64,000 nucleotides of DNA from Candidatus Hydrogenedens sp. (GCA_035378955.1 DAOSUS010000001.1:20580-84579); one strand, 5' to 3'; shown: positions 29,136 through 47,600, counted from the first letter of the stretch. The notes: a model not told the origin generated them from the sequence alone. Numbers and translations are program-made.

Positions 29136-29468
29136 GGCATGGCTCCTTCATAAAGGTTTACAATATTTTAAAAAAGATTTTAATACATTTGGCTCATTAT
29201 CATACTATAATCAACCCTTCAATATCGAAAAAAGACCTGCAATATATCAAAAGAAACATTCTATACGATGGAATAACAAAGGAAACTATTTTTAATAACG
29301 ATTATTCTTTTTATCCAATCACTGCTTAGAGAATTTATTCGATGTTGATTTTTTGGCTTTTGATATTTCATTACCTTATTCCCTTTTTATGGGATTGGTC
29401 GCTTTTGAGAATATTCTGCCCTATCTGGTCATGCTTGGCTTTTCCTTTGTTGTTTATTTAATTGAGTA

Positions 29469-30040
29469 CCTATAGGAGATAAAGAATACATAGATTTTAG
29501 AGTCCTCATAATACCATAAAGGATACAAAAACACGAATGAAGAAGGAAAGAAAATCTCTTCCAACTTGACATACACTATTTTTTCTCTTTGTAGATTGGA
29601 TTTCAATTGGTCAAAAAATTATCACCACGAATTACACAAATAGACACGAATAAAAACAAATGGAAAAAAATCTATCATCCATTATTTCATTTAATGAACG
29701 GAACCGTCCTCGCTTCGGGTATTTTTAATTGGATAAATCTTTCAACCACAAAAGATACAAAGATTTTGCACAGAGTTCACAATGTAGGAGCGAAATATGT
29801 TTCGCTCGCACCTTCTCTGTGGTTTTTGTGTGAAATTTCCTTCGTGTCCTCTGTGATTAATTCTTTTTTACTACGAAGAGCACAGAGCTCTTGCACAAAG
29901 TGTACAAAGATGAAAGATCCCGAAGCAGGGATGCTTCATCTACAATCTTCTTGTCCTTATAGTCTTGTCAGGGCATGGCATGCCATGCCCTTACGATTGG
30001 AAAGAAAGAAAGTATAAATCTGCTACCTATCTCCTATAGG
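29469..30040. repeat. Region bounded by a perfect 12-bp inverted repeat (CCTATAGGAGAT at 29469-29480 / ATCTCCTATAGG at 30029-30040), enclosing a ~100-bp repeat element and a 20-bp palindrome
   Basis: Read directly from the sequence. The CCTATAGG core is itself palindromic. Confidence 0.5.
29971..29990. repeat. 20-bp perfect palindrome GGGCATGGCATGCCATGCCC
   Basis: Exactly self-complementary; GC-rich within an AT-rich intergenic region. Confidence 0.8.
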
Positions 30041-30108
30041 TTATCAAATAGGATATCTCTACTAAAACGGAAAGGAAATTATAAATCTATTACCTATGTT
30101 CTATTACC
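30014..30108 (+). promoter_or_regulatory. Array of direct repeats containing TACCTAT upstream of the hdr promoter
   Basis: ATAAATCTGCTACCTAT (30014-30030) and ATAAATCTATTACCTAT (30071-30087); tandem TTACCTATGTTCTA x2 (30081-30108). Confidence 0.45.
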
Positions 30109-30179
30109 TATGTTCTATAGAATTTATTTATTACGATATTTTGTTTTTAATATTTTAAATATAATTATTTTATATTTAT

Positions 30180-30209
30180 TTGACAATATATAGATAATAT
30201 TACTATAAT
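30180..30209 (+). promoter_or_regulatory. Candidate sigma70-type promoter of the hdr-mvh operon
   Basis: TTGACA (30180-30185), an 18-bp spacer, then TATAAT (30204-30209), about 65 nt upstream of the hdrC start. The region is AT-rich, so a chance match is possible. Confidence 0.3.
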
Positions 30210-30273
30210 ACAATATATTATTAGATATATATTTAAAAATAAAAAATTATAATTGTTTTTTATATAAAAAATT

Positions 30274-30873
30274 ATGGCGCAAGAACTAACCACTAAATCA
30301 GTATTATACGAAAGACAGTTAGATGCAAATTTTGCCAACCTAATACAATCGATGCCTGGAGGCGAAAATTTGAGAAGGTGTATTCAATGTGGGACTTGTA
30401 GTGCTACTTGCCCATTTTCCCATGTTATGGATTATACACCTCGCAAGATTATCTATTTAATTAGGGAAGGCTTTAAAGAAGAAGTCATGTCCAGTTTTAC
30501 ACCGTGGCTTTGTGCAAGTTGTTTTTCATGTAGAGTCCGCTGTCCAAAGGAAATTAAAATAACGGATTTAATGTATCTAATAAAGAGAGAAGCAATAAAG
30601 GATAACCATTATCCCCAAAAAGCACCTATTGTGCTTCTAACAAAAGAATCGGTGAAAATGATTCATAAAAACGGTAGAATTTCTGAAAGTTATTTAATGG
30701 GAATTGTTCTACTTAAAGTTAGTTTTCTAAAGTTGCTTCGCATGTCGGGTTTAGGATTAAAAATGCTGTTAACAGGTAGATTTACCTTAATCCCAGAAAA
30801 AATAAAAAGTCGTGGAGAACTAAAGAAAATATTAGCCTTCTCAAATAAAAAAGTAGAGGAAAACAGTAAATGA
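30274..30873 (+). CDS. hdrC: Heterodisulfide reductase subunit C-like (2x[4Fe-4S] ferredoxin domain)
   Basis: Two CxxCxxCxxxCP motifs (CIQCGTCSATCP and CASCFSCRVRCP); first gene of a translationally coupled six-gene operon. Confidence 0.8.
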   Translation: MAQELTTKSVLYERQLDANFANLIQSMPGGENLRRCIQCGTCSATCPFSHVMDYTPRKIIYLIREGFKEEVMSSFTPWLCASCFSCRVRCPKEIKITDLMYLIKREAIKDNHYPQKAPIVLLTKESVKMIHKNGRISESYLMGIVLLKVSFLKLLRMSGLGLKMLLTGRFTLIPEKIKSRGELKKILAFSNKKVEENSK

Positions 30874-31739
30874 AATACTTTTACTATCCAGGTTGCTCTT
30901 TAAGAGGTATGGGAAAGGCATATGAAGAATCATGGTTAAAAGTGTGCCAAAAAATAGGTCTTCAATTAGAAGAAGTTAAAGATTGGAATTGTTGTGGTTC
31001 TACAACTTACCTTGGGTTCGATGAAATTAAATCATTAGTTTTGGTTTCAAGAAACCTTGCTATGTTAGAGAAAGAAGGGGGTAGTGAGGTTATTACACCC
31101 TGTATTGCTTGTTATTATCTCTTTAATAGGACAAATCATAATTTAAGGGACTATCCTCAATTAAAAACAGAAACAAATAAGATGTTACAAGAAGTAGGAT
31201 TAACCTATTCTGGAAATGTCAAAGTTAGGCACCCTTTAGATATCTTAGTTAATGATGGCTGGATGGAGAAAATATCTCAAAACATAGAAAAGCGACTGGA
31301 GCGTTTTAAAGCTGTTTGTTATTATGGCTGTCAACTTCTCAGACCCTATTGCGAGTTTGATAACCCGAGCAATCCTAAAAATATGGATATATTAGTTGGC
31401 CTCACAGGAGTTGATGTTTTAGATTATCCATTAAAGACTAAATGTTGTGGAGCAATTATAACTTCAAATATTCCCGAAAAAGGACTTGAACTTGTTTATG
31501 TTTTATTAAAGGAAGCAAAGAAAAGAAATGCGGATTTTATCGTGGTTACATGTCCTTTATGTCAATTTAATTTAGAATTTCAGCAAGAAAAGATTATGAA
31601 AATATATGAGGAAGATATTGGGTTACCCATATTGTATTACACACAAGTTCTGGGGTTGGCAATGGGTCTCTCCTTAAAAGAGTTAGGAATTAGACGTTGT
31701 TTAACACTAACACCAGAATTTGAGCGAGCTTTAATATGA
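30870..31739 (+). CDS. hdrB: Heterodisulfide reductase subunit B-like (two CCG domains)
   Basis: Cys-rich CCG motifs (NCCGSTTY..., CYYGCQ...KCCGA); 4-nt overlaps on both sides. Confidence 0.8.
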   Translation: MKYFYYPGCSLRGMGKAYEESWLKVCQKIGLQLEEVKDWNCCGSTTYLGFDEIKSLVLVSRNLAMLEKEGGSEVITPCIACYYLFNRTNHNLRDYPQLKTETNKMLQEVGLTYSGNVKVRHPLDILVNDGWMEKISQNIEKRLERFKAVCYYGCQLLRPYCEFDNPSNPKNMDILVGLTGVDVLDYPLKTKCCGAIITSNIPEKGLELVYVLLKEAKKRNADFIVVTCPLCQFNLEFQQEKIMKIYEEDIGLPILYYTQVLGLAMGLSLKELGIRRCLTLTPEFERALI

Positions 31740-33727
31740 AAACAAATAACAAGGAAATACGAATCGGTTTTTATATCTGTCATTGTGGGACAAATATTGC
31801 AGGCGTAGTAGATGTAGACAAAGTAAGAGAGTTTATAGTGAAAAAAGATAATGTTGTGGTGTCACGTAACTACAAATATATGTGTTCTGACCCAGGTCAG
31901 GAGTTAATACAAAAAGATATTCAAGAACATAGGTTAAACAGAATTGTTGTGGCGTCCTGCTCGCCATTACTTCATGAAAAAACTTTTAGAAATACTTTAG
32001 AAAAAGCAGGTTTAAATCCATTCTATCTTCAAATGGTTAATGTTAGAGAACATGTAGCTTGGGTTCATTCAGATAATGAAAAAGCCACTGAAAAAGCAAA
32101 GGCTTTGTGCAATGCAGCAATAAATAGGGTTAGGCATAATAAACCTCTTGAGAAAAAAAGAGTATCATTTCACCAAGATGTTTTAATTATAGGAGGGGGT
32201 ATTGCAGGCATACATTCTGCTTTGACATTAGCCTCTGGTGGCAAGAAGGTTTATCTCGTTGAGAAAAAGCCTACCATTGGTGGACACATGGCAATGTTCG
32301 ACAAAACATTCCCTACTCTGGACTGTGCCGCTTGCATTTTAACTCCTAAAATGTCTGCCATTAAAGAAAATAAAAATATAATACTCTGGACCAATTCAGA
32401 AGTGATAAAGATAGAAGGATATGTGGGAAACTTCAAAGTTACGATTAAGAGAAATCCTCGATATGTTAGGGAAGATTTGTGTATAGGATGTGGGCAATGT
32501 GTAGAAAATTGTTTCTATAAAGAGGCAAAATTTCCCGATGAGTTTAATTTAGGCTTAAGCAAGCGAAAACCTATTTACATACCTTTTCCACAAGCCATAC
32601 CCAATTCCGCCATAATTGATGATAAGACATGCATCCATTTCAAGACGGGAAAATGTAAACAGATGTGCCTATCTGCCTGTGAACGCAATGCTATTGATTT
32701 CAATCAAAAAGAAGAGTTAAGAGAAATTCAGGTTGGTGCTATTATTGTTGCCACCGGCTTCAAAACATACGATCCTATAAAGGAGCCCGAATATGGTTAT
32801 GGAGTTTATCCTAATGTATATACTTCACTTGAAGTAGAAAGACTGATTAATGCGTCGGGTCCCACTGCCGGTGAGGTAATATTAAGAGATGGGACAAAAC
32901 CCAAATCAATTGGTATTATTCATTGCATTGGTTCACGCAGTGAAAAAGCCAATAAATGGTGTTCTCGTGTTTGTTGTATGTACTCTTTGAAACTTGCCTA
33001 TTTACTAAAAAAACATACTCATGCAGAAATTTACAATTTCTATATTGATATGCGTACCCCGGGTAAAATGTATGAAGAATTTTATGATAGGCTTTTAACA
33101 GAGGGGGTACATTTTATCCGTGGGAAGGTTGCCGAAGTAACAGATATTTCCCTTGTGAAGGAAGAAGAGGGAAAACTAATATTAAGAGTTGAAGATACTT
33201 TAGCAAGTGTCATTAGGAGAATCCCTGTAGATATGGTAGTTCTATCAGTAGGTTTGGAACCCTCCGAAGACACACAAAAACTCGCACATATATTAAACAT
33301 AGGTCTTTCCGCTGAAGGCTTTTTCCAGGAAAGGCACCCTAAATTGGCTCCTGTCAGTACCTTTTCAGAGGGCATTTTTATTGCTGGATGTTGTCAAGGA
33401 CCTAAAGACATCCCTGATACCGTAGCGCAAGCAGGTGCTTCTGCTGCGGAGGCAATGGCTATGATTGATGCAGGATATTTTGAAATAGAACCCATTACTG
33501 CTTATGTGCTGGATGAATTTTGTAGTGGATGTAAATCCTGCATTAATATTTGTCCTTACTCTGCTATTTCTTATGACGAATCGAAGAAAAAAGTATTTGT
33601 AAATGAGACTTTATGCAAAGGATGCGGTACTTGTAGTGCTACTTGTCCGAGTGGTGTTATGAAACAAAATCTTTTCGAGGATGAACAAATATTGAATGAA
33701 ATTGAAGGACTTCTTGTGTATGAGTGA
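31736..33727 (+). CDS. hdrA: Heterodisulfide reductase subunit A-like flavoprotein (FAD plus multiple FeS clusters)
   Basis: FAD-binding motif VLIIGGGIAGIHSA; several CxxCxxCxxxCP ferredoxin motifs; the N-terminal Cys cluster typical of HdrA. Confidence 0.85.
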   Translation: MKTNNKEIRIGFYICHCGTNIAGVVDVDKVREFIVKKDNVVVSRNYKYMCSDPGQELIQKDIQEHRLNRIVVASCSPLLHEKTFRNTLEKAGLNPFYLQMVNVREHVAWVHSDNEKATEKAKALCNAAINRVRHNKPLEKKRVSFHQDVLIIGGGIAGIHSALTLASGGKKVYLVEKKPTIGGHMAMFDKTFPTLDCAACILTPKMSAIKENKNIILWTNSEVIKIEGYVGNFKVTIKRNPRYVREDLCIGCGQCVENCFYKEAKFPDEFNLGLSKRKPIYIPFPQAIPNSAIIDDKTCIHFKTGKCKQMCLSACERNAIDFNQKEELREIQVGAIIVATGFKTYDPIKEPEYGYGVYPNVYTSLEVERLINASGPTAGEVILRDGTKPKSIGIIHCIGSRSEKANKWCSRVCCMYSLKLAYLLKKHTHAEIYNFYIDMRTPGKMYEEFYDRLLTEGVHFIRGKVAEVTDISLVKEEEGKLILRVEDTLASVIRRIPVDMVVLSVGLEPSEDTQKLAHILNIGLSAEGFFQERHPKLAPVSTFSEGIFIAGCCQGPKDIPDTVAQAGASAAEAMAMIDAGYFEIEPITAYVLDEFCSGCKSCINICPYSAISYDESKKKVFVNETLCKGCGTCSATCPSGVMKQNLFEDEQILNEIEGLLVYE

Positions 33728-34196
33728 ACAAAACTGGGAACCTAAAATCATTGCGTTTTTCTGTAATTGGTGTACTTATACCGCTGCAGACCTGGCAGGA
33801 GTATCTAAGTTATCCTATGCCCCCAATGTGAGGATAATTAGAGTAATGTGCTCAGGTAGAGTAGACCCTCAATTTGTATTGTCTGCCTTTGCGAATGGAG
33901 CCGACGGCGTTTTAATCGGGGGCTGTCACCCTGGAGATTGCCACTATAGCGAGGGAAATTATAAAACTCTCCGAAGAATCTCTTTGCTAAAGAAAATGTT
34001 AACTCAATTTGGAATTGAATATGATAGGGTGCGACTGGAATGGATATCCGGTGCAGAAGGTGAAAAGGTAAAGACTGTTATAAACGAAATGACAGACAAA
34101 ATAAGAAAATTAGGACCACTAAATCTACCTGAAAAATTTATTACCTGGGATAGAGAATTAGAAAAACTAGACAGAGAGTCTGAATATATAAATTGA
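33720..34196 (+). CDS. mvhD: Methyl-viologen-reducing hydrogenase delta subunit
   Basis: MvhD/FlpD pattern (IIAFFCNWCTYTAADLAG...RVMCSGRVDP...GGCHPGDCHY). The start is likely the ATG at 33720, giving an 8-nt overlap with hdrA. Confidence 0.8.
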   Translation: MSEQNWEPKIIAFFCNWCTYTAADLAGVSKLSYAPNVRIIRVMCSGRVDPQFVLSAFANGADGVLIGGCHPGDCHYSEGNYKTLRRISLLKKMLTQFGIEYDRVRLEWISGAEGEKVKTVINEMTDKIRKLGPLNLPEKFITWDRELEKLDRESEYIN

Positions 34197-34208
34197 GGAA
34201 ATAGAACA

Positions 34209-35186
34209 ATGTCTTCAAAGCCGAAAGTAGCATTTTATTGGTGTGCTTCTTGTGGAGGTTGTGAAGAAGCAGTAGTTGATTTGGCAGAAGATATACTTGA
34301 AGTTGTAAAGTTAGTAGACATTGTATTTTGGCCAGTTGCCATGGACTTTAAAAAGAGAGATGTGGAAGCATTACCAGATAAATCAATTAATATTGCATTT
34401 ATTAATGGGGCAATTCGAACCTCCGAACAAAAAGAAATTGCTCATTTATTGAGAGAAAAGTCCCATTTAATTGTAGCCTTTGGCTCTTGTGCCTGTTTTG
34501 GTGGCATTCCTGCTCTTGCTAACCTCTACAGTAAGTTTGAAGTTTTAAATGATGTTTATATTGAGTCTCCAACTGTTGATAACGATACTAAATTGCTCCC
34601 TCAAACTACATCTGCTGATAATAATGGAAAACAGTTAGAATTACCTAAATTTTATAACCAGGTAAGGGCTTTAGATGAGGTCATTTCGGTAGATTATTAC
34701 CTGCCGGGTTGTGCTCCAACACCGAAATTAATAGCTAATGCTGTAAATACATTACTCGGTGGTAATTTGCCAGCTGCAGGTTCTACATTACTACCGGACA
34801 TAGCCCTTTGTGAAGAATGCCCGAGAAAAGACTCTAAACCCACAGACCTTTCGATTACAGAATATAAAAGGATTTGTGAAAATCTTGTGGACTCTGAAAA
34901 ATGTTTATTGGCTCAAGGGTTTCTATGCTTGGGTCCCGTAACTCGTGGTGGCTGCGAGGCTCTATGTATAAATGGAAATATGCCTTGTACAGGATGTACT
35001 GGTCCCACATCGAGAATAGTAGACTTTGGCGCAAAAGCAGTATCTATGTTTGCATCGTTGTCCAGTGGAAAAAACGAAGAGGAAATAGAGAAAAACTATG
35101 CACAAATAATAGACCCTGTAGGCACTTTTTATAGATATCATCTTTCAAAAAGTTTATTAAAAGGAAAACTTGAGAGGGGAATATAG
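34209..35186 (+). CDS. mvhG: [NiFe] hydrogenase small subunit (MvhG-type)
   Basis: N-terminal Cys cluster WCASCGGCEE and a further FeS Cys set; it sits immediately upstream of the large subunit. Confidence 0.8.
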   Translation: MSSKPKVAFYWCASCGGCEEAVVDLAEDILEVVKLVDIVFWPVAMDFKKRDVEALPDKSINIAFINGAIRTSEQKEIAHLLREKSHLIVAFGSCACFGGIPALANLYSKFEVLNDVYIESPTVDNDTKLLPQTTSADNNGKQLELPKFYNQVRALDEVISVDYYLPGCAPTPKLIANAVNTLLGGNLPAAGSTLLPDIALCEECPRKDSKPTDLSITEYKRICENLVDSEKCLLAQGFLCLGPVTRGGCEALCINGNMPCTGCTGPTSRIVDFGAKAVSMFASLSSGKNEEEIEKNYAQIIDPVGTFYRYHLSKSLLKGKLERGI

Positions 35187-35189
35187 AGT

Positions 35190-36662
35190 ATGGAACAACA
35201 ACTAAAAAGGAAAGTCTCTATTGACCCGATTACTCGTTTAGAAGGGCATGGAAGAATAGAAATATTTTTTGATGATAATAAAAATGTCGAAAAAGCATAT
35301 TTACAGATTCCTGAGTTAAGAGGTTTTGAAAAATTTTGTGAAGGTAGACTTCCGGAAGATATGCCCCAAATAACTTCGAGAATTTGTGGTGTGTGTCCAA
35401 CCGCACATCACATAGCAAGTGCAAAGACGCTTGATAAATTATTTAATGTAGAGTCTACTCCTACTGCGAAAAAAATAAGGGAACTCGTTTACAATGCATT
35501 TATGTTTGAAGACCATGCTCTTCACTTCTACATTCTCGGAGGTCCTGATTTTATTGTTGGCACCGGCGCACCAAAAGAATTAAGAAATGTAATTGGTGTA
35601 ATTCAAAAAGTAGGAACTGATATTGCAAAACAACTAATTTCTATTCGAAAGAGAAATCGGGAACTTATTTCTTATTTAGGGGGTAAAGTAATACATCCCG
35701 TATTAGGTTTACCAGGTGGAGTGGCTAAAGGTATTGATGAAGATGAGTTATCAAAAATTAAGCAATTGGCTCAGGATAACTTAGAATTTGCCCTTTTTAC
35801 TCTTGACACATTTAAGCGAATCATACTTGAAAACCACGAGTATTTAAATTTAGTTACTTCTCCGGCATATACTCATCAGACTTACTATATGGGGATGGTA
35901 GACTCTGGAAATAGAGTAAACTTTTACGACGGAATGATAAGGGTTGTAGACCCAAATGGAAAAGAGTATGTAAAATTCGACCCTCGGGAATACCGAAACC
36001 ATATAGGTGAACATGTAGAGCCTTGGACATATATAAAGTTTTGCTATCTTAAAAATGTTGGTTGGAAAGGCTTCAAAGATGGCATAGACAGTGGAATTTA
36101 TTGCGTAGCCCCACTTGGGCGATTAAACGCATGTGAAAGTATGGCTACTCCTAAGGCACAACAGGCTTATGAAGAGTATATAAAAACTTTAGGTAAACCG
36201 GTGCATTACACACTTGCTACTCATTGGGCACGGATTATTGAAATAATATATGCAAGCGAACGAATGATAGAACTTGTAAATGACCCTGAGATAACGGGAA
36301 AAGATTTGAGAAATATTCCTTCTAAAGTGGGAGAAATTGGAATTGCAGCAGTTGAAGCCCCTAGAGGCACTTTATTCCACCATTATGAAACAGACTCAAA
36401 AGGTTTACTTAGGAAAGTCAACCTCATCGTGGCTACACAAAATAACGCGGGGAGAATATCTCTTAGTATAGATAAATCTGCAAAGGAGTTAATGAAAAAT
36501 GGGGATGGGAGTATTACTGAGGAACTGCTCAATAAAATAGAAATGGCTTTTAGAGCCTATGACCTCTGTTTTGGCTGTGCTACCCATTACCTTCCAAGCA
36601 AACTTCCTTTCATAATTATCCTGCGAAATTCGCAAGGAAAAATAATAAAGAGAATTTTCTAA
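35190..36662 (+). CDS. mvhA: [NiFe] hydrogenase large subunit (MvhA-type)
   Basis: N-terminal RxCGxC (RICGVCPTAHH) and C-terminal DLCFGCATH Ni-binding motifs, with a C-terminal extension for endopeptidase processing. Confidence 0.9.
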   Translation: MEQQLKRKVSIDPITRLEGHGRIEIFFDDNKNVEKAYLQIPELRGFEKFCEGRLPEDMPQITSRICGVCPTAHHIASAKTLDKLFNVESTPTAKKIRELVYNAFMFEDHALHFYILGGPDFIVGTGAPKELRNVIGVIQKVGTDIAKQLISIRKRNRELISYLGGKVIHPVLGLPGGVAKGIDEDELSKIKQLAQDNLEFALFTLDTFKRIILENHEYLNLVTSPAYTHQTYYMGMVDSGNRVNFYDGMIRVVDPNGKEYVKFDPREYRNHIGEHVEPWTYIKFCYLKNVGWKGFKDGIDSGIYCVAPLGRLNACESMATPKAQQAYEEYIKTLGKPVHYTLATHWARIIEIIYASERMIELVNDPEITGKDLRNIPSKVGEIGIAAVEAPRGTLFHHYETDSKGLLRKVNLIVATQNNAGRISLSIDKSAKELMKNGDGSITEELLNKIEMAFRAYDLCFGCATHYLPSKLPFIIILRNSQGKIIKRIF

Positions 36663-36886
36663 AAAATCATTCCTTAATGTTTCAAAATTATAAACCTAAA
36701 TAGGAGCGGTAAGAAAAAACAGCGCTTTTTACCTTCAATTCTCTGCTTTTACCTCTCCAATTCTATAAAAAATAAAACATAGGTAACAGGTTTATATTTT
36801 CTCGGATAATGAATCCAGTTTACATTCCCACTCAAACTTAAATAAAGAATAAAGTAGGTATTACCTATAATCTATAAAGATTCTTG

Positions 36887-39805
36887 TTATTTGATGTCTA
36901 TCTGGACATCGGAGGGTGTAGTGATGAGAGACCAGAGCGTTTTCCAATCGGCGTTGATGTAGAAAATAGGTGCTAAATTCATGTTGGGCGTTGTTAAAAG
37001 TAATGAAACGGTTGCTTGATTATCCTTAAATCCTACGGTCAATTCTCCATTGGTAAACGGTTTCGGGTCTTCTTTTCCTAATAATTTTTCTAATTGCTTT
37101 TGAACGATACTAACATTCTGTAAATATAAAATTAATCGAAGAAGAACATCACGGTTAATGGTCAATCCCTCGGGACATAGAAGACTAAAATTCCCCTCGA
37201 CAAGTTGTCCCTGCGTAAAATTTATATTTGCATCAAAATTACCATTAGCCCGTCCAGAAAGATTGACCCATGGAGGTTGAACTTCCGCAGTAAATTGAGA
37301 CAAATCAACACCTGCATATTCACCCGCAATGTTCCCTATAAGTGAACCCTCTTTTTTCTGAACAATCCCTTGTGTATCCAATTTGCCTTTCCATAAATTT
37401 CCATTCATGCGGGTTATTTCTATTTCGGGAGGTAGGAATTTTAATCGCAAACTATTTTCTATTTGAGAAATCTTCACTTTCTGTAAGGCAATCTCATCTA
37501 TTTTTATATCAACGGCTAAATCTGTATTCCTTAAATTTTGAGGCTGTAATTGTGATACAAAATTATTTACCTGTATTTGCCATGCAGGTATGCCCAATTT
37601 TGAGATATTCACATTCCATTCTATCTCTCCATTTTTGACCTGATTATCTTTATATTCAAAATTTTTCAAAGAGAGATAATAAGTTCCCTGGCTCTCTTGC
37701 GAAATTCCCCAATCCTGTAAATCGTTAAAAGTTCCTTTAACATCCAGATTTTGAATGTTTACAGCAAGGTTGGGGTTATCCGAAGTCAGGAGTATCCTGC
37801 CTTTTTGAATTTTTGCCAGTTCACAATTCTTAAATCCCAACATTAAATTCTCAATCTCAAATGTATAATCCGAAAAATCCCCAGTTATATCCGTATTAAA
37901 ACATAAAGGAATTCCTTCTGGAAGCATATATCCACCTATGCCTAAACCTTCTCCAGAACCTGACCCCTGTATTTTAATTCTCAAACTTCCATTCCAATGA
38001 AGTTTCCCATGAAACTCCGCTTTGCCCGGAATATAAAAAGGAAGGAATTCCGAAGAAAGGGTCGAAAGATAAATTTTTGTTTTCATATCCCCTTCTAACG
38101 ATACTGGAAACATATATAATTTGCAAGGATTTAATTCAAAATCAGTAGAATTCTCGGAGGAGAGCCGAAAAGCACCCACAACCGTTTCCAAGTTCTGAAT
38201 TATTCCCTGAAAACCAAATTCCGACGGCACAATAGGTAGATATTCTTCATCCTCTTTTTCTGGTGATAACACCCCTTTGAATTGTAAGTCTACCTTATTC
38301 CATTCCTTCCCTTTTATATCCACTTCTATATCTGCAAGTGTTGTTTCTAATGCCTTCTTTACTAAGGAAGGAGTTAACAACTGTATAAATTTTGCTGGAA
38401 ACTTCTCTGTTTGAATATGCGAAATAAAAGTGGTAAAAGGAATCCATTCAGCCGAAAAATGAATAGGATAGGAGAGGACATTCACATCACCCGACCATTT
38501 TATTTGGTTAGAACCCTTATTATCCGCAATAAATTTTACATCACTATTAAGTCGGATACTATCTATATTAGGAATTGATAGTTTCCCCTGAGTGTTCCCT
38601 TCCAGAACAGGTAAAATCCCTTGAAGCGCCAAAGAACATTCTACAGAAAAAGGCTCTATTTGTTTGAGTAATAGTGTATTGTATAAATAAGGGGATACCT
38701 CCTGAATAGTTTTCCCTTGTATAGTCCCACAAGAAAAATCTAAATAGGTATTCTGGTTAACATGATTATATTTCCAGTTCATCTTCCATACAGGGGCTTT
38801 ATCGCTATTCATTACCACTTCGGTTGCTTTCTCATCTTCCTTGTATTGAGAATGGATATGTATTTCAGAAGTATATCGGAGCCATGGTTTTTCTTTATCA
38901 CCTATTGTTAATGAAGAAAAGAACATTTCCCCGTTAATATTCTCAGGTATCCACCGAGCACCTTGATAATAAACACTACCCTGAAGATGGGATACCTGAA
39001 TTTTTTGCCAGTCGACAGGTAAAGAAAACATAGAATAGATTAACGGCGACAAGGATTGAGATACATTTTCATCAAGGGACAAGGACATATCTTCTATATT
39101 CACTCTTTGCATAGAGTTATCAAAGTTTACTTTTCCCTGTGCAAGCATATAAGGTGCGAACTGGATATTCATTCCTATTTCTTGAGACTCCTTCTGGAGT
39201 TGGTAATGTATATCCACCGTACCTGTAAGCGATTCTTTCTGCCCATTATAGGTAACTTCCATAATAGCACCCGTAGAGGAAAGGGAAATAAGGTTTTGGG
39301 CTTTGTCAATAGTAAGTGGAATACCTGATACAAACAATGTCCTTTCGTGATTATTAACAAACATAGAAATATTCTTAACAAACAACTTTTGAGGTAGATA
39401 GGTAAAAAAAGATTGGAAATTAGGAACATTCGTTTCTTGATTGGTTTTCCTTTCTTCCTTCAGTTTATTTGAAAATGGAGATGTTGTATCAACATGAATA
39501 TTACACGATTCAATGGAAACACATAACTTTTGTGGCTTTCTTAAAGATAATTGTATCTGAATATTTTGAAACTCTAAATCTGTGTTATAATCATTCAATT
39601 GAACAGAAATATTTTTTAGAGAAATATTAGGAAAAATAGAGAGACCTGATAACTTAATGAAAATATTTTTTGTGGGTTTAAAAGATACAGAGTCTTTTAT
39701 TAAAAATAGTGACCAAACGCCGAAAACAGATATAATAATTATAGATAAGAAAACAACAATGCTGATGGCGGTATATTTTATTATTTGAATTAACTTTTTT
39801 CTCAC
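36887..39805 (-). CDS. Giant envelope protein with an N-terminal TM anchor, AsmA/TamB-like (putative outer-membrane biogenesis/lipid transport)
   Basis: 972 aa, a single N-terminal TM (ISIVVFLSIIIISVFGVW), then long beta-rich repetitive sequence typical of the AsmA family. No catalytic motif. Confidence 0.45.
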   Translation of the reverse strand: MRKKLIQIIKYTAISIVVFLSIIIISVFGVWSLFLIKDSVSFKPTKNIFIKLSGLSIFPNISLKNISVQLNDYNTDLEFQNIQIQLSLRKPQKLCVSIESCNIHVDTTSPFSNKLKEERKTNQETNVPNFQSFFTYLPQKLFVKNISMFVNNHERTLFVSGIPLTIDKAQNLISLSSTGAIMEVTYNGQKESLTGTVDIHYQLQKESQEIGMNIQFAPYMLAQGKVNFDNSMQRVNIEDMSLSLDENVSQSLSPLIYSMFSLPVDWQKIQVSHLQGSVYYQGARWIPENINGEMFFSSLTIGDKEKPWLRYTSEIHIHSQYKEDEKATEVVMNSDKAPVWKMNWKYNHVNQNTYLDFSCGTIQGKTIQEVSPYLYNTLLLKQIEPFSVECSLALQGILPVLEGNTQGKLSIPNIDSIRLNSDVKFIADNKGSNQIKWSGDVNVLSYPIHFSAEWIPFTTFISHIQTEKFPAKFIQLLTPSLVKKALETTLADIEVDIKGKEWNKVDLQFKGVLSPEKEDEEYLPIVPSEFGFQGIIQNLETVVGAFRLSSENSTDFELNPCKLYMFPVSLEGDMKTKIYLSTLSSEFLPFYIPGKAEFHGKLHWNGSLRIKIQGSGSGEGLGIGGYMLPEGIPLCFNTDITGDFSDYTFEIENLMLGFKNCELAKIQKGRILLTSDNPNLAVNIQNLDVKGTFNDLQDWGISQESQGTYYLSLKNFEYKDNQVKNGEIEWNVNISKLGIPAWQIQVNNFVSQLQPQNLRNTDLAVDIKIDEIALQKVKISQIENSLRLKFLPPEIEITRMNGNLWKGKLDTQGIVQKKEGSLIGNIAGEYAGVDLSQFTAEVQPPWVNLSGRANGNFDANINFTQGQLVEGNFSLLCPEGLTINRDVLLRLILYLQNVSIVQKQLEKLLGKEDPKPFTNGELTVGFKDNQATVSLLLTTPNMNLAPIFYINADWKTLWSLITTPSDVQIDIK

Positions 39806-39865
39806 GCTGTTTCCTTTAACAAGATATATTAATATAAACTATTATTAGTTATATTTTAATCACGA

Positions 39866-42382
39866 GTGCCTATGAAAAAGAAACCTTCAACAGAAAAAGA
39901 ATCCCTATCAGAATTAGAAGAAGCAGAAAATTCTGAGGTAGATAATAGCGGAAGTTCCATAAATACTTCTTCCGAAAATACGCCATTTTCATCTAAATTG
40001 TATCGTGTGCTTTCTGTTCAACCTCAACAAGGACCTCATCAATCCCTTTTCCCAGCAATATTAGAACATCTTCCCGAATGCCACATTGACCGCGTATATT
40101 CTGTAAAAGAAGTGATGGACTATATAAAGGTCTTTGTGCCGGATTGTTTGATTATTGATTGCACTCTCGGAGATGAATCCTGTCTTACATTATGCCGGTA
40201 TTGGAAAACCTCCCTAAACACTTCAAAAATCCCTATATTGCTTATTGTCAATTACGATATATCTACCTCACGTCGATGGGAATTGATGGCTGCGGGGATA
40301 GATGACTTTCTAATGTATCCTTGCGATATAACAGAATTGATAACCCGCATTCGTATCTTGCTACGAATGAAACAAGCAGAAGTGGGACTCTGGGAAACGA
40401 ACCGTAGATTGATGGAACTGGCAGAAGAGCGGTCCCGTGCCTTGTTTGTATACGATTCTTTAAACCGCTTCTTATTAGATAATTGCAGTAATCCGGTATT
40501 AATCTTTGAGCTGAACGACAATATACGGGAAAGTCGTTTCCTGGATGCCAATAATTTTGTATTTCGAATGACCGGTTTTACACGCGAAGAGTTTCTCCAA
40601 CTCCGCCTTCGGGATATCATTCCTAAAAATCGCATTGATGGAATACAGGGCAGAATTGAAACTATTCTCCAACATCAGCAGGTATCTTTTGAAACTGTAA
40701 TTTTAGCCAAAGACGGCAGACAAATCCCGATAGAAGTTCAAGCACAGAGTTTTAATACAGACAACCAGCCCTGCATCATCGCCATAGGACAACCTTTAGA
40801 AGACACGCAAAGCATCACTTCAGAGCGTGTTTCTGAAAGTATTTCTCGCTATCGTATTTTAGCCGCACAAACCGGTATGATGATTTATGACTGCAACCTC
40901 CATTCGGGTAAAGTTAAATGGGGAGGAGCCGTAACTCAGGTAACAGGCTACCTCCTGCGAGAATTAGACACAATCAATTTACAACGATGGATGGACCATA
41001 TCCATATTGAAGACCTACCGCGTGTCAAGGCACATATTGAAGTAGCAAAACAGGAGATTGGAAAATTTCGTGTAGAATACCGATTGCGACATAAAAGTGG
41101 TGATTATCGTTATGTAGAAGACCAGGGTGTTGTCCTACCTGATGCGACAGGCGAAGCCTACAGAATATTAGGTTCCATAAAAGATATAACCATCCAAAAA
41201 CAGGAAGAAGAAGAACGCAGAAGGGCTGAACAACAGGTTCAACATTCACAGCGATTGGAAAGTTTAGGCGTTTTAGCAGGAGGAATTGCTCACGATTTTA
41301 ACAATCTGTTAGCCGTTATCATCGGTCTAACAGACATGGCCATCAATGAAGTGCCTAAAAAAACACCTCTACACGAAGACCTGAAAGAGGTATTACAGGC
41401 GGCACATCGTGCAAAAGACCTTGTAAAGCAGATTCTAACATTTAGCCGACAAACCGGCGAAGAAAGCAGTCCTTTATATTTACATGTTATTGCACGGGAA
41501 GCCCTGAAACTCCTTAGAGCAACGACTTCACCTACCATTGATATTATTGATAATGTAGATGTTCATTCCGGAGCAATTATGGGCAATCCCTCACAAATAC
41601 ATCAAGTTGTAATGAATTACTGCACCAATGCCATTCAGGCAATGCCCAAAGGTGGAAAATTGGAAGTGGAAGTGAGGGATGTTACCTTAGATAGCGATGC
41701 TTCACAAATCCATCCCAAACTAAAACCTGGAGCCTATGTAAAATTAACCGTGCGCGATAACGGACATGGGATGGAACCCCCTATTTTAGAGCGTATCTTT
41801 GACCCTTTCTTCACTACAAAAAAGCCCGGCGAAGGAACCGGTATGGGATTAGCTGTTGTGCATGGTATCGTAACGGCACACGGAGGAACTATTATTGTAG
41901 AAAGCAAACCAGGAATGGGCTCCACTTTCTACACTTATTTCCCGCGAATTGACAATCCTATTGTTCTTGAGAAAAAGCAAGATGAAGAACCCTTAGAAGG
42001 ACAAGAGCGTATCCTCTTTGTAGATGATGAAGAATCTGTTTGTAAATTAGGAAAAAGAGTACTAACCCAATGGGGATATAATGTTGAAGTATGCCAAAAT
42101 GCCTTAGCTGCTTTAGCAGTCTTTACACAAAACCCGGACCGTTTTGACCTTGTCGTAACAGACCAAGCAATGCCCAAAATGTCCGGTGAAGTTTTAGCAC
42201 GATGGGTTAAAGAACTTCGTCCCGATATACCTGTAATTCTCTTCACAGGTTTCAGCGGAGAATTCTCATCCGAAGAATTATCCCGTTTAGGAATTGACGA
42301 AATCGTGATGAAGCCCATCGTAGCCCGCGACCTTGCCCGTCGAATTCGAAAAGTCTTAGACCAACAAAAGAAAACTTTCTAA
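39866..42382 (+). CDS. Hybrid sensor histidine kinase/response regulator with PAS domains
   Basis: N-terminal receiver-like domain, PAS/PAC region, HisKA H-box AGGIAHDFNNLL, HATPase_c (GxGxG: GEGTGMGL), C-terminal receiver (ILFVDDEE...DLVVTDQAMPKMSG). Confidence 0.85.
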   Translation: MPMKKKPSTEKESLSELEEAENSEVDNSGSSINTSSENTPFSSKLYRVLSVQPQQGPHQSLFPAILEHLPECHIDRVYSVKEVMDYIKVFVPDCLIIDCTLGDESCLTLCRYWKTSLNTSKIPILLIVNYDISTSRRWELMAAGIDDFLMYPCDITELITRIRILLRMKQAEVGLWETNRRLMELAEERSRALFVYDSLNRFLLDNCSNPVLIFELNDNIRESRFLDANNFVFRMTGFTREEFLQLRLRDIIPKNRIDGIQGRIETILQHQQVSFETVILAKDGRQIPIEVQAQSFNTDNQPCIIAIGQPLEDTQSITSERVSESISRYRILAAQTGMMIYDCNLHSGKVKWGGAVTQVTGYLLRELDTINLQRWMDHIHIEDLPRVKAHIEVAKQEIGKFRVEYRLRHKSGDYRYVEDQGVVLPDATGEAYRILGSIKDITIQKQEEEERRRAEQQVQHSQRLESLGVLAGGIAHDFNNLLAVIIGLTDMAINEVPKKTPLHEDLKEVLQAAHRAKDLVKQILTFSRQTGEESSPLYLHVIAREALKLLRATTSPTIDIIDNVDVHSGAIMGNPSQIHQVVMNYCTNAIQAMPKGGKLEVEVRDVTLDSDASQIHPKLKPGAYVKLTVRDNGHGMEPPILERIFDPFFTTKKPGEGTGMGLAVVHGIVTAHGGTIIVESKPGMGSTFYTYFPRIDNPIVLEKKQDEEPLEGQERILFVDDEESVCKLGKRVLTQWGYNVEVCQNALAALAVFTQNPDRFDLVVTDQAMPKMSGEVLARWVKELRPDIPVILFTGFSGEFSSEELSRLGIDEIVMKPIVARDLARRIRKVLDQQKKTF

Positions 42383-46218: not shown

Positions 46219-47325
46219 CTATAATTTCACAGGCATTATAATATTTATATATCTCTCATCTCCTTCCGCCTCAGGAGTTAATGGCTTTATAACACAAGGA
46301 CTACCTCCATCTTTCATAGACATTACTAATTTATCTGATGTTATATGGTCAACAATATCTACCAAATATTCAATGTTAAATCCTGTTTTAACTTCATCTC
46401 CTTCATATTCAACTTCTACTGTATCTGAAAATTCACCAACTTCTGGATTTTGAACCTCTATATCCATACGACCTTTCTGGACAAGAACCTTCACAGACAT
46501 AAACTTCATCGCTTCCGCCCTCCTCAAAACGGATTTCCACTCCTCCGCCTTTATTATTACATGCTTACTATAATCCCTTGGTATAACAACTTCATAATTC
46601 GGGAATGTCCCTTCTATCAAACTACTTGTTAACCTTGTTTTATTAAACACAAATGATACCCTTGATTCACCATCAAACACCTTTATATCTCCTGTCCCAT
46701 CCATCTGGCTCATTAGTTCCTTCACCGTCCTCTCCGGTATCGTTATACGAACATTCCTTTTTACAGGTACACATTCCCTTTCTCTCCTAAGACTCATTCT
46801 CTTCCCATCCGTTGCAACCACAGTAAGATTTCCACCATTTATCTCAAACAAAACCCCTGTCAACGCATATCTTGATTCCTCAGTACACACTGCAAACGCT
46901 ACCTTACGAAACATATCCAACAACAATGACTCCGAAATAACTATAGGTTCCACATCATCTACAAACATTACAGGTGGAAATTCATCGGGAGGCATTGTTA
47001 CATATTTCACTTCTGTCCGACCACTCTTAACTACTACTGAAGTTTCACTCATAGATTTAATAATCACATCACCTTTTGGTAAATTAGAAAGCAAATTCGA
47101 AAATAGATGAGCCCTTAATGTAACCCTTCCTTCTTCTTCTATCTCACATTCATCTAACTCTTGCTCAATAGTCATCCGTAAATCTGTGCTTGTTAATTTT
47201 AATAAACCATCTTCTGCAGTTATTAAAATAGAAGATAGAATTGGTAATGATGATTTTGCAGGAACTGCGTTTCTCACCTTTGATAATGCTTCATTTAATT
47301 TTTCCTGTTTTACTGTTATTTTCAT
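46219..47325 (-). CDS. dnaN: DNA polymerase III beta sliding clamp
   Basis: MKITVKQEKLNEALSKV...LPILSSILI typical DnaN N-terminus; three-domain length (368 aa). Confidence 0.9.
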   Translation of the reverse strand: MKITVKQEKLNEALSKVRNAVPAKSSLPILSSILITAEDGLLKLTSTDLRMTIEQELDECEIEEEGRVTLRAHLFSNLLSNLPKGDVIIKSMSETSVVVKSGRTEVKYVTMPPDEFPPVMFVDDVEPIVISESLLLDMFRKVAFAVCTEESRYALTGVLFEINGGNLTVVATDGKRMSLRRERECVPVKRNVRITIPERTVKELMSQMDGTGDIKVFDGESRVSFVFNKTRLTSSLIEGTFPNYEVVIPRDYSKHVIIKAEEWKSVLRRAEAMKFMSVKVLVQKGRMDIEVQNPEVGEFSDTVEVEYEGDEVKTGFNIEYLVDIVDHITSDKLVMSMKDGGSPCVIKPLTPEAEGDERYINIIMPVKL

Positions 47326-47600
47326 ATTTTTCCTCCAACAGTTACTTTCTTCTTCTTACTTCTTATTATATTTAAAAATATCGTAGTAGTAACAGTAGTA
47401 TATGTTTATTTATGGATAACTATAAAAGATTATCCTTTTTTCATATTCAAAAGCAACTTTTTATTGTTGATATGTTATGAATTTTTTTGTTGATAAATTT
47501 ATCTTTTCCACAAAAGTAAAAAATAAAAAATTTTCATGTTAGTATTTTGTTAATAAAAATAAAAAAATTCACAAGAAAGTAACAACTTTTCCATAGTAAA

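What the first reader, a model, noticed from the sequence alone, without database searches (positions are those of the whole stretch)
29136..36890. AT-rich island carrying a complete hdrCBA-mvhDGA module in an LPS-producing bacterium
Six tightly coupled genes (4-nt, 4-nt and 8-nt overlaps, 12-nt and 3-nt gaps) encode a heterodisulfide-reductase-like complex fused to an Mvh-type [NiFe] hydrogenase. Such complexes are known from methanogens and some anaerobic bacteria and perform flavin-based electron bifurcation. The block is flanked by roughly 1.1 kb and 0.2 kb of very AT-rich non-coding DNA with repeat structures. Its codon composition looks more AT-rich than the flanking housekeeping genes (rho, polA, lpxAB), which suggests horizontal acquisition. 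No hyp maturation genes or HdrA partner genes are present in the window.
Basis: partly seen in the sequence, partly recalled or inferred. Interest (0 to 1): 0.6.

Follow-up and report, generated by a model that had tools for sequence, protein, structure and literature searches.

The report
Acquired hydrogenase–heterodisulfide reductase operon island
A 7.6-kb stretch of a 'Candidatus Hydrogenedens' genome carries a complete, intact six-gene hydrogen-splitting enzyme complex of a well-known type; a closely related species lacks the stretch at this exact spot, and its nearest relatives are in a different phylum (Elusimicrobiota), so it is a tidy but unsurprising case of horizontal gene transfer.

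Summary
Six co-directional genes, hdrC-hdrB-hdrA-mvhD-mvhG-mvhA (30274-36662, + strand), have exactly the stated overlaps and gaps. Each matches its chain in the solved methanogen MvhAGD-HdrABC complex. The host is 'Candidatus Hydrogenedens sp.' (MAG GCA_964588155.1).

Composition is only mildly shifted (GC3 27% against 33%), within the spread of control blocks. The flanking non-coding DNA is no more AT-rich than other intergenic DNA.

Stronger evidence:
- A related Hydrogenedens contig (L092) has the two flanking genes adjacent. Window 29279-36884 is replaced there by 148 nt.
- In a concatenated four-protein tree the Hydrogenedens operon nests inside an Elusimicrobiota clade (100/100 bootstraps).

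The island predates the split from Ca. H. terephthalaticus, which carries it, and it is under purifying selection (dN/dS 0.08-0.32). The inverted repeat flanking the operon comes from a dispersed MITE-like intergenic repeat. One of its two arms lies in an insertion that the sister species lacks, so it does not mark island ends.

One oddity: the near-universal DPCxxC nickel-site motif reads DLCxxC here.

This is a known kind of enzyme in a genus named for its hydrogenases. Interest is low to moderate.

The parts
29279..36884 (.). Island: 7.6 kb present in the window (and, from about 29335 rightwards, in Ca. H. terephthalaticus). In the related contig L092 it is replaced by 148 nt, and there SSF and the 972-aa gene are adjacent.
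   Evidence: L092rc 1-2037 matches window 27242-29278 (88%). L092rc 2186-5919 matches window 36885-40623 (84%).
29335..29455 (.). Non-coding block shared with the sister species (82% over 73 nt). It is absent from L092 and forms the left part of the island.
29459..30050 (.). Window-specific insertion of about 590 nt. It is a copy of a dispersed MITE-like intergenic repeat, bounded by 23-nt inverted repeats (29459-29481 and 30028-30050), and contains hairpins and palindromes.
   Evidence: It is absent from L003. A partial copy lies at 61356-61520 (72%). Copies occur in unrelated intergenic regions of metagenome contigs L182, L164, L138 and L192.
30050..30135 (+). Upstream copy of a ~75-nt direct repeat. 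It carries the TTACCTAT motif, including a 14-nt tandem duplication, and the left arm of the 31-nt inverted repeat (30075-30105).
30180..30209 (+). Sigma-70-type promoter, TTGACA-N18-TATAAT (12 of 12 matches), 65 nt upstream of hdrC. The -35 hexamer is conserved in the sister species.
30274..30873 (+). hdrC: 199 aa, with two CxxCxxCxxxCP [4Fe-4S] motifs.
30870..31739 (+). hdrB: 289 aa, with two CCG domains. All 10 cysteines of the non-cubane [4Fe-4S] sites are present.
31736..33727 (+). hdrA: 663 aa, an FAD and multi-[4Fe-4S] bifurcating flavoprotein. It scores 707 bits over its full length to M. marburgensis HdrA.
33720..34196 (+). mvhD: 158 aa, the [2Fe-2S] connector subunit (FlpD).
34209..35186 (+). 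mvhG: 325 aa, the [NiFe] hydrogenase small subunit.
35190..36662 (+). mvhA: 490 aa, the group 3c [NiFe] large subunit. The L1 motif RICGVCPTAH is intact. The L2 motif reads AYDLCFGCATH (P459L). A 24-aa C-terminal extension follows His466.
36701..36792 (.). Window-specific 92-nt insertion with a TA duplication. It carries the right arm of the 31-nt inverted repeat (36771-36801).
36815..36884 (+). Downstream copy of the ~75-nt direct repeat. It ends at the right edge of the island, next to the stop codon of the 972-aa gene.

Best explanation
The region is a 7.6-kb genomic island in a 'Candidatus Hydrogenedens' genome. It consists of one promoter and one operon, hdrCBA-mvhDGA.

The operon encodes a cytoplasmic group 3c [NiFe]-hydrogenase (MvhAGD) wired to a soluble heterodisulfide-reductase-type module (HdrABC). 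By homology to the solved methanogen complex, the electron path would be as follows.
- H2 is split at the Ni-Fe site of MvhA.
- Electrons pass through the three clusters of MvhG and the [2Fe-2S] cluster of MvhD to the FAD of HdrA.
- There the pair is bifurcated. One electron goes uphill to ferredoxin. The other goes downhill through HdrC to the two non-cubane [4Fe-4S] clusters of HdrB, which reduce a disulfide.

The organism is not a methanogen, so the disulfide is not expected to be CoM-S-S-CoB and remains unidentified. In a syntrophic fermenter the complex could equally run backwards and evolve H2 (confurcation).

The island was acquired horizontally from an Elusimicrobiota-like donor. This happened after the L092 lineage diverged and before the window species and Ca. 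H. terephthalaticus split. The island has been kept under purifying selection since then. Later, copies of a dispersed MITE-like repeat landed in both of its intergenic ends in the window species.

Shown here: gene content, conserved ligands, the empty site, the phylogenetic position and the selection signal.

Inferred: catalytic mechanism, direction of operation, the substrate, and the mechanism of integration.
For: Identity of the operon
- Pfam and NCBIfam assignments.
- Near full-length matches to PDB chains of the methanogen complex: HdrA 707 bits, MvhA 390, MvhG 229, MvhD 183, HdrB 156 and HdrC 85. The Cys ligands are conserved.
- The same gene order, hdrCBA-mvhDGA, occurs in dozens of bacterial phyla.

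Host
- The exact MvhA sequence lies on a 144.7-kb contig of MAG GCA_964588155.1. NCBI names the organism Candidatus Hydrogenedens sp..
- The sister species Ca. H. terephthalaticus has the operon at 94% nucleotide identity with the same right flank.

Island status
- There is an empty site in L092.
- The operon is absent beside the 972-aa gene in L088, L089 and L090.

Donor
- The best non-Hydrogenedens MvhA hits are 76%, 73% and 70% identical.
- The 70% hit is named Elusimicrobia CG08.
- The 73% cluster sits on a 98.7-kb contig. All named homologues of that contig's RNase III are Elusimicrobiales or Elusimicrobiota.
- The contig of the 76% hit shares a Flavin_Reduct protein that is at least 90% identical with that 98.7-kb contig.
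- A concatenated HdrA+MvhD+MvhG+MvhA neighbour-joining tree (1575 columns) puts Hydrogenedens inside this clade in 100 of 100 bootstraps.

Function retained
- dN/dS is 0.08-0.32 for all six genes.
- The window branch shows no excess of amino-acid changes: 26 against 30.
- A 12-of-12 sigma-70 promoter lies upstream.

Composition
- GC3 is 5.5 points lower than in the rest of the window. This fits the AT-rich donor-clade contigs, which have 33.5-36.8% GC.
Against: - No integrase, transposase or tRNA lies at the borders, and no target-site duplication is visible at the island ends. The integration mechanism is therefore unknown.
- Polarity (gain against loss in L092) rests on parsimony plus the phylogeny. 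It does not rest on a recognisable attachment site.
- The tree is neighbour-joining. Its sample is limited to the 80 best of a truncated candidate list plus three metagenome contigs.
- The taxon of L214 rests on a single marker gene. The taxon of L083 rests on association with L214.
- Composition alone would not single the block out.
- No hyp genes or maturation endopeptidase are in the window, whereas the Elusimicrobia CG08 relative has HycI right after mvhA.
- MvhA carries P459L in the otherwise invariant DPCxxC motif. The sister species and all the other loci examined (about 85 motif occurrences) have Pro. P125T is a second deviation at a highly conserved column. The effect of either on activity is unknown.
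- No biochemical data exist for any bacterial complex of this clade. The second substrate is unknown.
Confidence: 0.72

Rival explanations
1. Vertical inheritance with loss. The operon is ancestral in the Hydrogenedens lineage and was precisely deleted in the L092 lineage. The similarity to Elusimicrobiota would then reflect transfer in the opposite direction or a tree artefact.
For: A single loss is as parsimonious as a single gain on the three-taxon tree (window, H. terephthalaticus, L092). A ~75-nt direct repeat flanks the operon and could mediate a deletion. The compositional shift is small.
Against: - The Hydrogenedens pair is a single long branch nested inside several Elusimicrobiota lineages (L006, L015, L086, L083, L214), with 100/100 support. 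Transfer out of Hydrogenedens would not produce that pattern.
- A search of 5.8 billion proteins found no homologue between 76% and 96% identity.
- L092's 148-nt filler shows no similarity to the direct repeat (p about 0.9). Recombination between the repeats should have left one copy behind.
- Three further relatives lack the operon beside the 972-aa gene.
Confidence: 0.12
2. Active mobile cassette. The operon is carried by a non-autonomous transposable unit whose ends are the 31-nt inverted repeats (30075-30105 and 36771-36801), and it can still move.
For: The 31-nt inverted repeat is 87% complementary and brackets the operon. The 17-mer core occurs only three times in 64 kb, all at these two places, against 0.1 expected. 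TTACCTAT is enriched (9 against 2.9 expected), with four copies in the two flanks.
Against: - The right arm lies in a 92-nt insertion that the sister species lacks, although that species has the operon.
- The large repeat copy upstream (29459-30050) is also missing from the sister species.
- The same repeat family occurs in unrelated intergenic regions with no hdr or mvh genes.
- The island borders defined by L092 (29279 and 36884) do not coincide with the inverted-repeat arms.
- No transposase is present.
Confidence: 0.04
3. Assembly or binning artefact. The operon belongs to a co-occurring Elusimicrobiota organism and was joined to Hydrogenedens DNA by mis-assembly.
For: The sequence comes from a metagenome-assembled genome. 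The nearest relatives of the operon are in another phylum.
Against: - The same junctions appear in a 144.7-kb NCBI MAG contig and in a 62-kb JGI contig.
- Both Ca. H. terephthalaticus assemblies (AWNW01000024 and ASNU01000009) have the same right junction.
- The operon is only 70-76% identical to the Elusimicrobiota versions, so it is not a contemporary contaminant.
Confidence: 0.02
4. Decaying or non-catalytic remnant. The hydrogenase has lost activity, through P459L at the Ni-site motif and the lack of a dedicated maturation protease, and the operon is on its way to becoming a pseudogene or serves another role.
For: DLCFGC replaces the otherwise invariant DPCxxC. The change is a single CCC to CTC substitution relative to the sister species. 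P125T is a second deviation at a column conserved at 97% or more. No HycI or hyp genes are in the window.
Against: - All six reading frames are intact with tight coupling.
- dN/dS is 0.08-0.32.
- The window branch has no more amino-acid changes than the sister branch.
- All four Ni-ligand cysteines and the cleavage-site His are present.
- Maturation genes commonly lie elsewhere in a genome (general knowledge, not tested here).
Confidence: 0.1

Closest known systems
MvhAGD-HdrABC of hydrogenotrophic methanogens (Methanothermococcus thermolithotrophicus, PDB 5ODC; Methanothermobacter marburgensis, PDB 8RVU and 9SW2)
   Same: All six subunits are present, each aligning over nearly its full length. 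The four Ni-Fe cysteines, the HdrB 2xCCG sites (10 Cys), the HdrC 2x[4Fe-4S] motifs, and HdrA over its full length including the aligned cysteine motifs and the Pfam FAD-binding match are all conserved.
   Different: The host is a bacterium and does not make methane, so the CoM-S-S-CoB substrate is not expected. The genes form a single hdrCBA-mvhDGA operon. The L2 motif has Leu in place of Pro. NCBIfam scores fall below the methanogen equivalog cut-offs, for example VhuA 393 bits against a cut-off of 800 and HdrB 170 against 345.
Bacterial group 3c [NiFe]-hydrogenase/Hdr cassettes (HydDB group 3c; Elusimicrobiota, Verrucomicrobiota, Acidobacteriota, Ignavibacteria and others)
   Same: Gene order is identical and protein identity is 58-76%. 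The operon nests within the Elusimicrobiota branch of this family.
   Different: The Elusimicrobiota relatives carry extra genes after mvhA. In CG08 it is the HycI endopeptidase. In L083 and L214 it is a Flavin_Reduct protein plus a flavodiiron protein, with an Rrf2 regulator further downstream in L083. The Hydrogenedens island carries only the six structural genes.
HdrA2B2C2 of Methanosarcina acetivorans (PMC5296606)
   Same: The NCBIfam HdrA2 model is the best hit for HdrA (840 bits). It also covers MvhD, because HdrA2 is an HdrA-MvhD fusion.
   Different: Here HdrA and MvhD are separate genes overlapping by 8 nt. The electron donor module is a [NiFe] hydrogenase, not F420H2. The score is below the model cut-off of 1100.
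Classical genomic islands (integrase-borne, tRNA-targeted)
   Same: The block is present or absent among close relatives, its phylogeny is foreign, and its composition is mildly deviant.
   Different: It has no integrase, no tRNA and no boundary repeats that coincide with the indel ends.

Membership tests
Group 3c [NiFe]-hydrogenase (Mvh type) | Large-subunit L1 motif ICGxCxxxH (as given in PMC6085437) | tested here: met
   The sequence is RICGVCPTAHH at residues 64-74, invariant across 16 aligned homologues.
Group 3c [NiFe]-hydrogenase (Mvh type) | Large-subunit L2 motif AYDPCxxCATH (PMC6085437) | tested here: inconclusive
   The sequence is AYDLCFGCATH. Both cysteines and the His are present, but Pro459 is Leu. 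The sister species and all the other loci examined have Pro.
Group 3c [NiFe]-hydrogenase (Mvh type) | Best similarity to MvhA/VhuA rather than to other [NiFe] groups | tested here: met
   The top PDB hit is 5ODC chain F, MvhA (390 bits). The top NCBIfam hit is VhuA (393 bits, below its methanococcal equivalog cut-off of 800).
Group 3c [NiFe]-hydrogenase (Mvh type) | Co-encoded MvhG small subunit and MvhD [2Fe-2S] subunit | tested here: met
   MvhG scores 229 bits to 5ODC_E and MvhD 183 bits to 5ODC_D. Both are adjacent in the operon.
Electron-bifurcating Mvh-Hdr complex | Co-encoded HdrA, HdrB and HdrC (the minimum set MvhADG + HdrABC, PMC6085437) | tested here: met
Electron-bifurcating Mvh-Hdr complex | HdrB with two CCG motifs (10 Cys) for the non-cubane [4Fe-4S] clusters | tested here: met
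   All ten cysteines align with M. marburgensis HdrB.
Electron-bifurcating Mvh-Hdr complex | H2-dependent, coupled reduction of ferredoxin and a disulfide | not testable with these tools
   This needs enzyme assays. The disulfide substrate in this bacterium is unknown.
Electron-bifurcating Mvh-Hdr complex | Maturation machinery (HypA-F and a specific endopeptidase) present in the genome | not tested
   None is in the 64-kb window. The rest of the MAG could not be read with these tools.
Horizontally acquired genomic island | Presence/absence polymorphism at a conserved site among close relatives | tested here: met
   L092 has SSF and the 972-aa gene adjacent, with 148 nt in place of window 29279-36884.
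Horizontally acquired genomic island | Phylogeny incongruent with the host lineage | tested here: met
   The operon nests in an Elusimicrobiota clade in 100 of 100 neighbour-joining bootstraps on 1575 columns. The donor-clade taxon comes from record titles and from RNase III hits. The method is neighbour-joining only, with limited sampling.
Horizontally acquired genomic island | Deviant base composition or codon usage | tested here: inconclusive
   GC3 is 27.3% against 32.8% (p = 0.002) and is the lowest six-gene block. Codon-bias and tetranucleotide distances fall within the control range.
Horizontally acquired genomic island | Mobility genes, or a tRNA or attachment site at the borders | tested here: not met
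   There is no integrase or transposase, no tRNA and no repeat at the indel ends.

The most novel reading that the evidence does not exclude
Two readings remain open.

First, the dispersed TTACCTAT-ended repeat family is more than a passenger. Older copies of its terminus form the ~75-nt direct repeats on both sides of the operon in both Hydrogenedens species, and newer copies have homed into them. That could mean this non-autonomous element family captured and delivered a 6.4-kb metabolic operon across phyla.

Second, the P459L change at the Ni-site motif may mark a functionally altered group 3c hydrogenase, working on a still unknown bacterial disulfide.
Probability: 0.07. Interest if true: 0.6.

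Novelty: new member of a known kind. Interest (0 to 1): 0.3.

Why it matters
The region gives a clean, datable example of cross-phylum transfer of a complete electron-bifurcating hydrogenase module. The empty site, the occupied sites in two species and the donor clade are all identifiable.

It also shows that the hydrogenase for which the genus is partly named is an import rather than a lineage trait. This fits the general picture that group 3c hydrogenases spread among anaerobic bacteria by transfer.

It does not answer the real open question for these bacterial complexes, which is what disulfide HdrB reduces. It does offer a compact six-gene unit with its own strong promoter, and a natural P-to-L variant of the Ni-site motif next to a wild-type sister sequence. 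Both could be expressed and compared.

Tried and rejected
- Rfam and tRNA scans of the whole window were empty. The 1.1-kb upstream region therefore holds no known riboswitch or RNA gene, and there is no tRNA integration site.
It was useful only because a later BLAST of those loci picked out four contigs with real, longer copies of the repeat.
- I tried to read L092's 148-nt filler as a single attB-like copy of the direct repeat. The similarity is no better than shuffled sequence (p about 0.9), so I rejected this.
- I tried to name the taxon of the 76% and 73% MvhA relatives through cluster look-ups. No organism names were returned. This was solved indirectly with an RNase III search.
- The 136-aa ORF at 29607-30017 has no Pfam hit, lies inside the repeat insertion and is absent from the sister species. 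I rejected it as a gene. The 39-aa hydrophobic ORF at 29342-29461 has a stop at codon 19 in the sister species, as read, and I did not pursue it.
- The Nobu et al. 2015 paper on Hydrogenedentes physiology could not be retrieved. A literature search for mutagenesis of the DPCxxC proline found nothing usable.
- The terminator scan found no convincing intrinsic terminator after mvhA.

Full report
**What is at the coordinates**

Six co-directional ORFs lie on the + strand at 30274-30873, 30870-31739, 31736-33727, 33720-34196, 34209-35186 and 35190-36662. An independent gene caller gives the same genes.

Pfam and NCBIfam identify them as HdrC (2x[4Fe-4S]), HdrB (two CCG domains), HdrA (FAD plus Fe-S), MvhD (FlpD), MvhG and MvhA. 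Each product aligns over almost its whole length with the matching chain of the solved methanogen MvhAGD-HdrABC complex:

| Subunit | Score (bits) |
|---|---|
| HdrA | 707 |
| MvhA | 390 |
| MvhG | 229 |
| MvhD | 183 |
| HdrB | 156 |
| HdrC | 85 |

The ten HdrB cysteines, the two HdrC cluster motifs and the four Ni-Fe cysteines of MvhA are all present.

A perfect sigma-70 consensus, TTGACA-N18-TATAAT, sits at 30180-30209. It is the only 12-of-12 match in the 8 kb scanned.

**Host and surroundings**

The exact MvhA sequence lies on a 144.7-kb contig of MAG GCA_964588155.1 and on a 62-kb JGI contig. NCBI names the organism Candidatus Hydrogenedens sp..

The window also holds rho, polA, lpxB, lpxA, dnaN and other housekeeping genes. 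Pfam scans of its 45 ORFs of 90 aa or more found no Hyp or HycI family. Rfam and tRNA scans were empty.

**Composition**

| Measure | Operon | Rest of window |
|---|---|---|
| GC | 36.6% | 39.0% |
| GC3 | 27.3% | 32.8% |
| Karlin codon-bias distance | 0.174 | control blocks 0.128 +/- 0.026, maximum 0.194 |
| Tetranucleotide distance | 0.168 | control windows 0.133 +/- 0.018, maximum 0.173 |

The GC3 difference gives Mann-Whitney p = 0.002, and the operon has the lowest GC3 of any six-gene block. The codon-bias and tetranucleotide distances both fall inside the control ranges.

The two non-coding flanks have 29.4% and 28.1% GC. Other intergenic DNA of the window averages 26.6%. So they are long, but not unusually AT-rich. 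Composition alone is weak evidence for an island.

**Comparative evidence for an island**

The species-level relative Ca. H. terephthalaticus (L003, L093) has the same operon at 94% nucleotide identity. It also has the same downstream neighbours, a 972-aa protein with no Pfam domain and a PAS hybrid histidine kinase. Its upstream gene is different.

The 972-aa protein has only nine homologous clusters among 5.8 billion proteins. One of them (79% identity) lies on contig L092, where it is followed directly by the SSF transporter that flanks the island on the other side in the window.

- L092 matches window 27242-29278 at 88% and window 36885-40623 at 84%.
- Between those matches it has 148 unrelated nucleotides in place of window 29279-36884.

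Three more distant relatives (47-59% identity) keep the pair of the 972-aa gene and the kinase gene, but each has different, non-hydrogenase genes on the side of the 972-aa gene where the window has the island.

**Phylogeny**

After its own cluster, the best MvhA hits are 76%, 73% and 70% identical. Nothing lies between 76% and 96%.

- The 70% protein is from Elusimicrobia bacterium CG08.
- The 73% cluster has a member on a 98.7-kb contig (L214) that also carries plsX, fabG, acpP and rnc. Every named homologue of that RNase III is from Elusimicrobiales or Elusimicrobiota.
- The contig of the 76% protein (L083) shares with L214 the downstream Flavin_Reduct and flavodiiron genes. The two Flavin_Reduct proteins fall in one cluster at 90% identity or more.

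A concatenated HdrA+MvhD+MvhG+MvhA neighbour-joining tree (52 taxa, 1575 columns) groups the two Hydrogenedens sequences with L083 and L214 in 100 of 100 bootstraps. Adding Elusimicrobia CG08 to that group is also supported 100 of 100. Two further Elusimicrobiota MAGs branch next.

The operon therefore nests inside an Elusimicrobiota clade. Together with the empty site, this supports one horizontal acquisition. It happened after the L092 lineage diverged and before the window species and Ca. H. terephthalaticus split.

The hdrCBA-mvhDGA gene order is shared by most of the 80 loci from many phyla, so the cassette travels as a unit.

**State of the genes**

Between the window and the sister species, dN/dS is 0.08-0.32 for all six genes.

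Polarising the changes with L083 gives 26 amino-acid changes on the window branch and 30 on the sister branch. There is no sign of decay.

Two window-only deviations fall in columns conserved at 97% or more. Both are in MvhA: P125T and P459L. P459L turns the DPCxxC motif into DLCFGC by a single CCC to CTC change. The sister species and all the other loci examined have proline. I could not find data on what this does.

MvhA keeps a 24-residue extension after His466, so it should need a maturation endopeptidase. The Elusimicrobia CG08 relative encodes HycI immediately after mvhA. The Hydrogenedens island does not.

**The repeats**

The 31-nt inverted repeat that brackets the operon (30075-30105 and 36771-36801, 87% complementary) is real. 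Its 17-nt core occurs only at these two places in 64 kb. It does not mark island ends, for these reasons:

- The right arm lies in a 92-nt insertion with a TA duplication that the sister species lacks.
- About 590 nt upstream (29459-30050, bounded by 23-nt inverted repeats) is also missing from the sister species.
- Part of that insertion has a 72% identical copy at 61356-61520 in another long intergenic region of the window.
- Longer copies, including the terminal motif, lie in unrelated intergenic regions of four metagenome contigs with no hdr or mvh genes.

This is a dispersed MITE-like repeat family.

An older ~75-nt direct repeat with the same TTACCTAT core lies upstream of the promoter and at the right edge of the island in both species. 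Within H. terephthalaticus its alignment score is 26, against a shuffled mean of 12.2 +/- 2.2 (p about 0.002). It is weaker in the window. It has no counterpart in L092's filler. Its role is unexplained. Possibilities are a remnant of older copies of the same element, a preferred target for them, or a regulatory site.

**Mechanism**

By homology, the complex oxidises H2 at MvhA. It passes electrons through MvhG and MvhD to the FAD of HdrA. There it bifurcates them to ferredoxin and, through HdrC, to the disulfide-reducing clusters of HdrB.

This is inference from the methanogen enzyme. No bacterial member of this clade has been assayed as far as I could find.

Published surveys already note Mvh-Hdr homologues in non-methanogenic bacteria, and note that their role may differ (PMC6085437). 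The phylum name Hydrogenedentes itself refers to the abundance of hydrogenases in the first single-cell genomes (PMC6121073).

The disulfide substrate and the physiological direction are open. H2 uptake and confurcating H2 release in a syntrophic fermenter are both possible.

**Verdict**

The thing itself is a new, well-documented instance of a known kind of system and a known kind of event.

Noticed in passing
window 61022-63808: A second 1.1-kb intergenic region (27.7% GC) carries a partial copy of the dispersed repeat at 61356-61520. It is followed by two adjacent N6/N4 DNA-methylase genes with the lowest GC3 in the window (0.215 and 0.231). By composition this is a stronger island candidate than the hdr-mvh block.
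   Followed up: partly
window 36887-42382: A 972-aa protein with no Pfam domain has only nine homologous clusters among 5.8 billion proteins. It forms a conserved divergent pair with a PAS/HisKA/REC hybrid histidine kinase in every Hydrogenedens-like relative examined (L088-L093).
   Followed up: partly
window 35190-36662 (MvhA residues 125 and 459): P125T and P459L are the only window-specific changes at columns conserved at 97% or more in any of the six proteins. P459L alters the DPCxxC Ni-site motif. The sister species has Pro at both positions.
   Followed up: partly
L083 10328-12493; L214 11517-13208: In the closest Elusimicrobiota relatives the operon is followed, in the same direction, by a Flavin_Reduct gene and a flavodiiron protein gene. 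In L083 an Rrf2 regulator, which JGI calls NO-sensitive, lies further downstream. This hints at a link between this hydrogenase clade and O2 or NO detoxification. These genes were not transferred with the island.
   Followed up: no
L182 375-971 and 4121-4291; L164; L138 3-116; L192 7355-7867: Copies of the window's 29701-30049 repeat, with its ATAAAYCTRYTACCTAT terminus, lie in intergenic regions of unrelated metagenome contigs with 38-44% GC. I did not find any transposase associated with them. The host organisms are not identified.
   Followed up: partly
L133 214-351: A 1.3-kb metagenome contig carries four copies of the 17-mer motif within 140 nt, which looks like a tandem array of the repeat terminus.
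   Followed up: no
window 29342-29461: A 39-codon ORF encoding a very hydrophobic peptide lies in the non-coding block shared with the sister species. There the frame has a stop at codon 19, so it is probably not a gene.
   Followed up: partly
window 46219-47600: dnaN is followed by a 275-nt intergenic region of 20% GC, and the next gene is a type II/IV secretion ATPase rather than dnaA. I did not examine whether an origin of replication lies here.
   Followed up: no
window 30274-36662 versus 36887-42382, compared with L003: Synonymous divergence from the sister species is lower in most operon genes (dS 0.12-0.20; hdrC 0.34) than in the two adjacent genes (0.29 and 0.42). This could reflect codon selection in a highly expressed operon or more recent recombination.
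   Followed up: no
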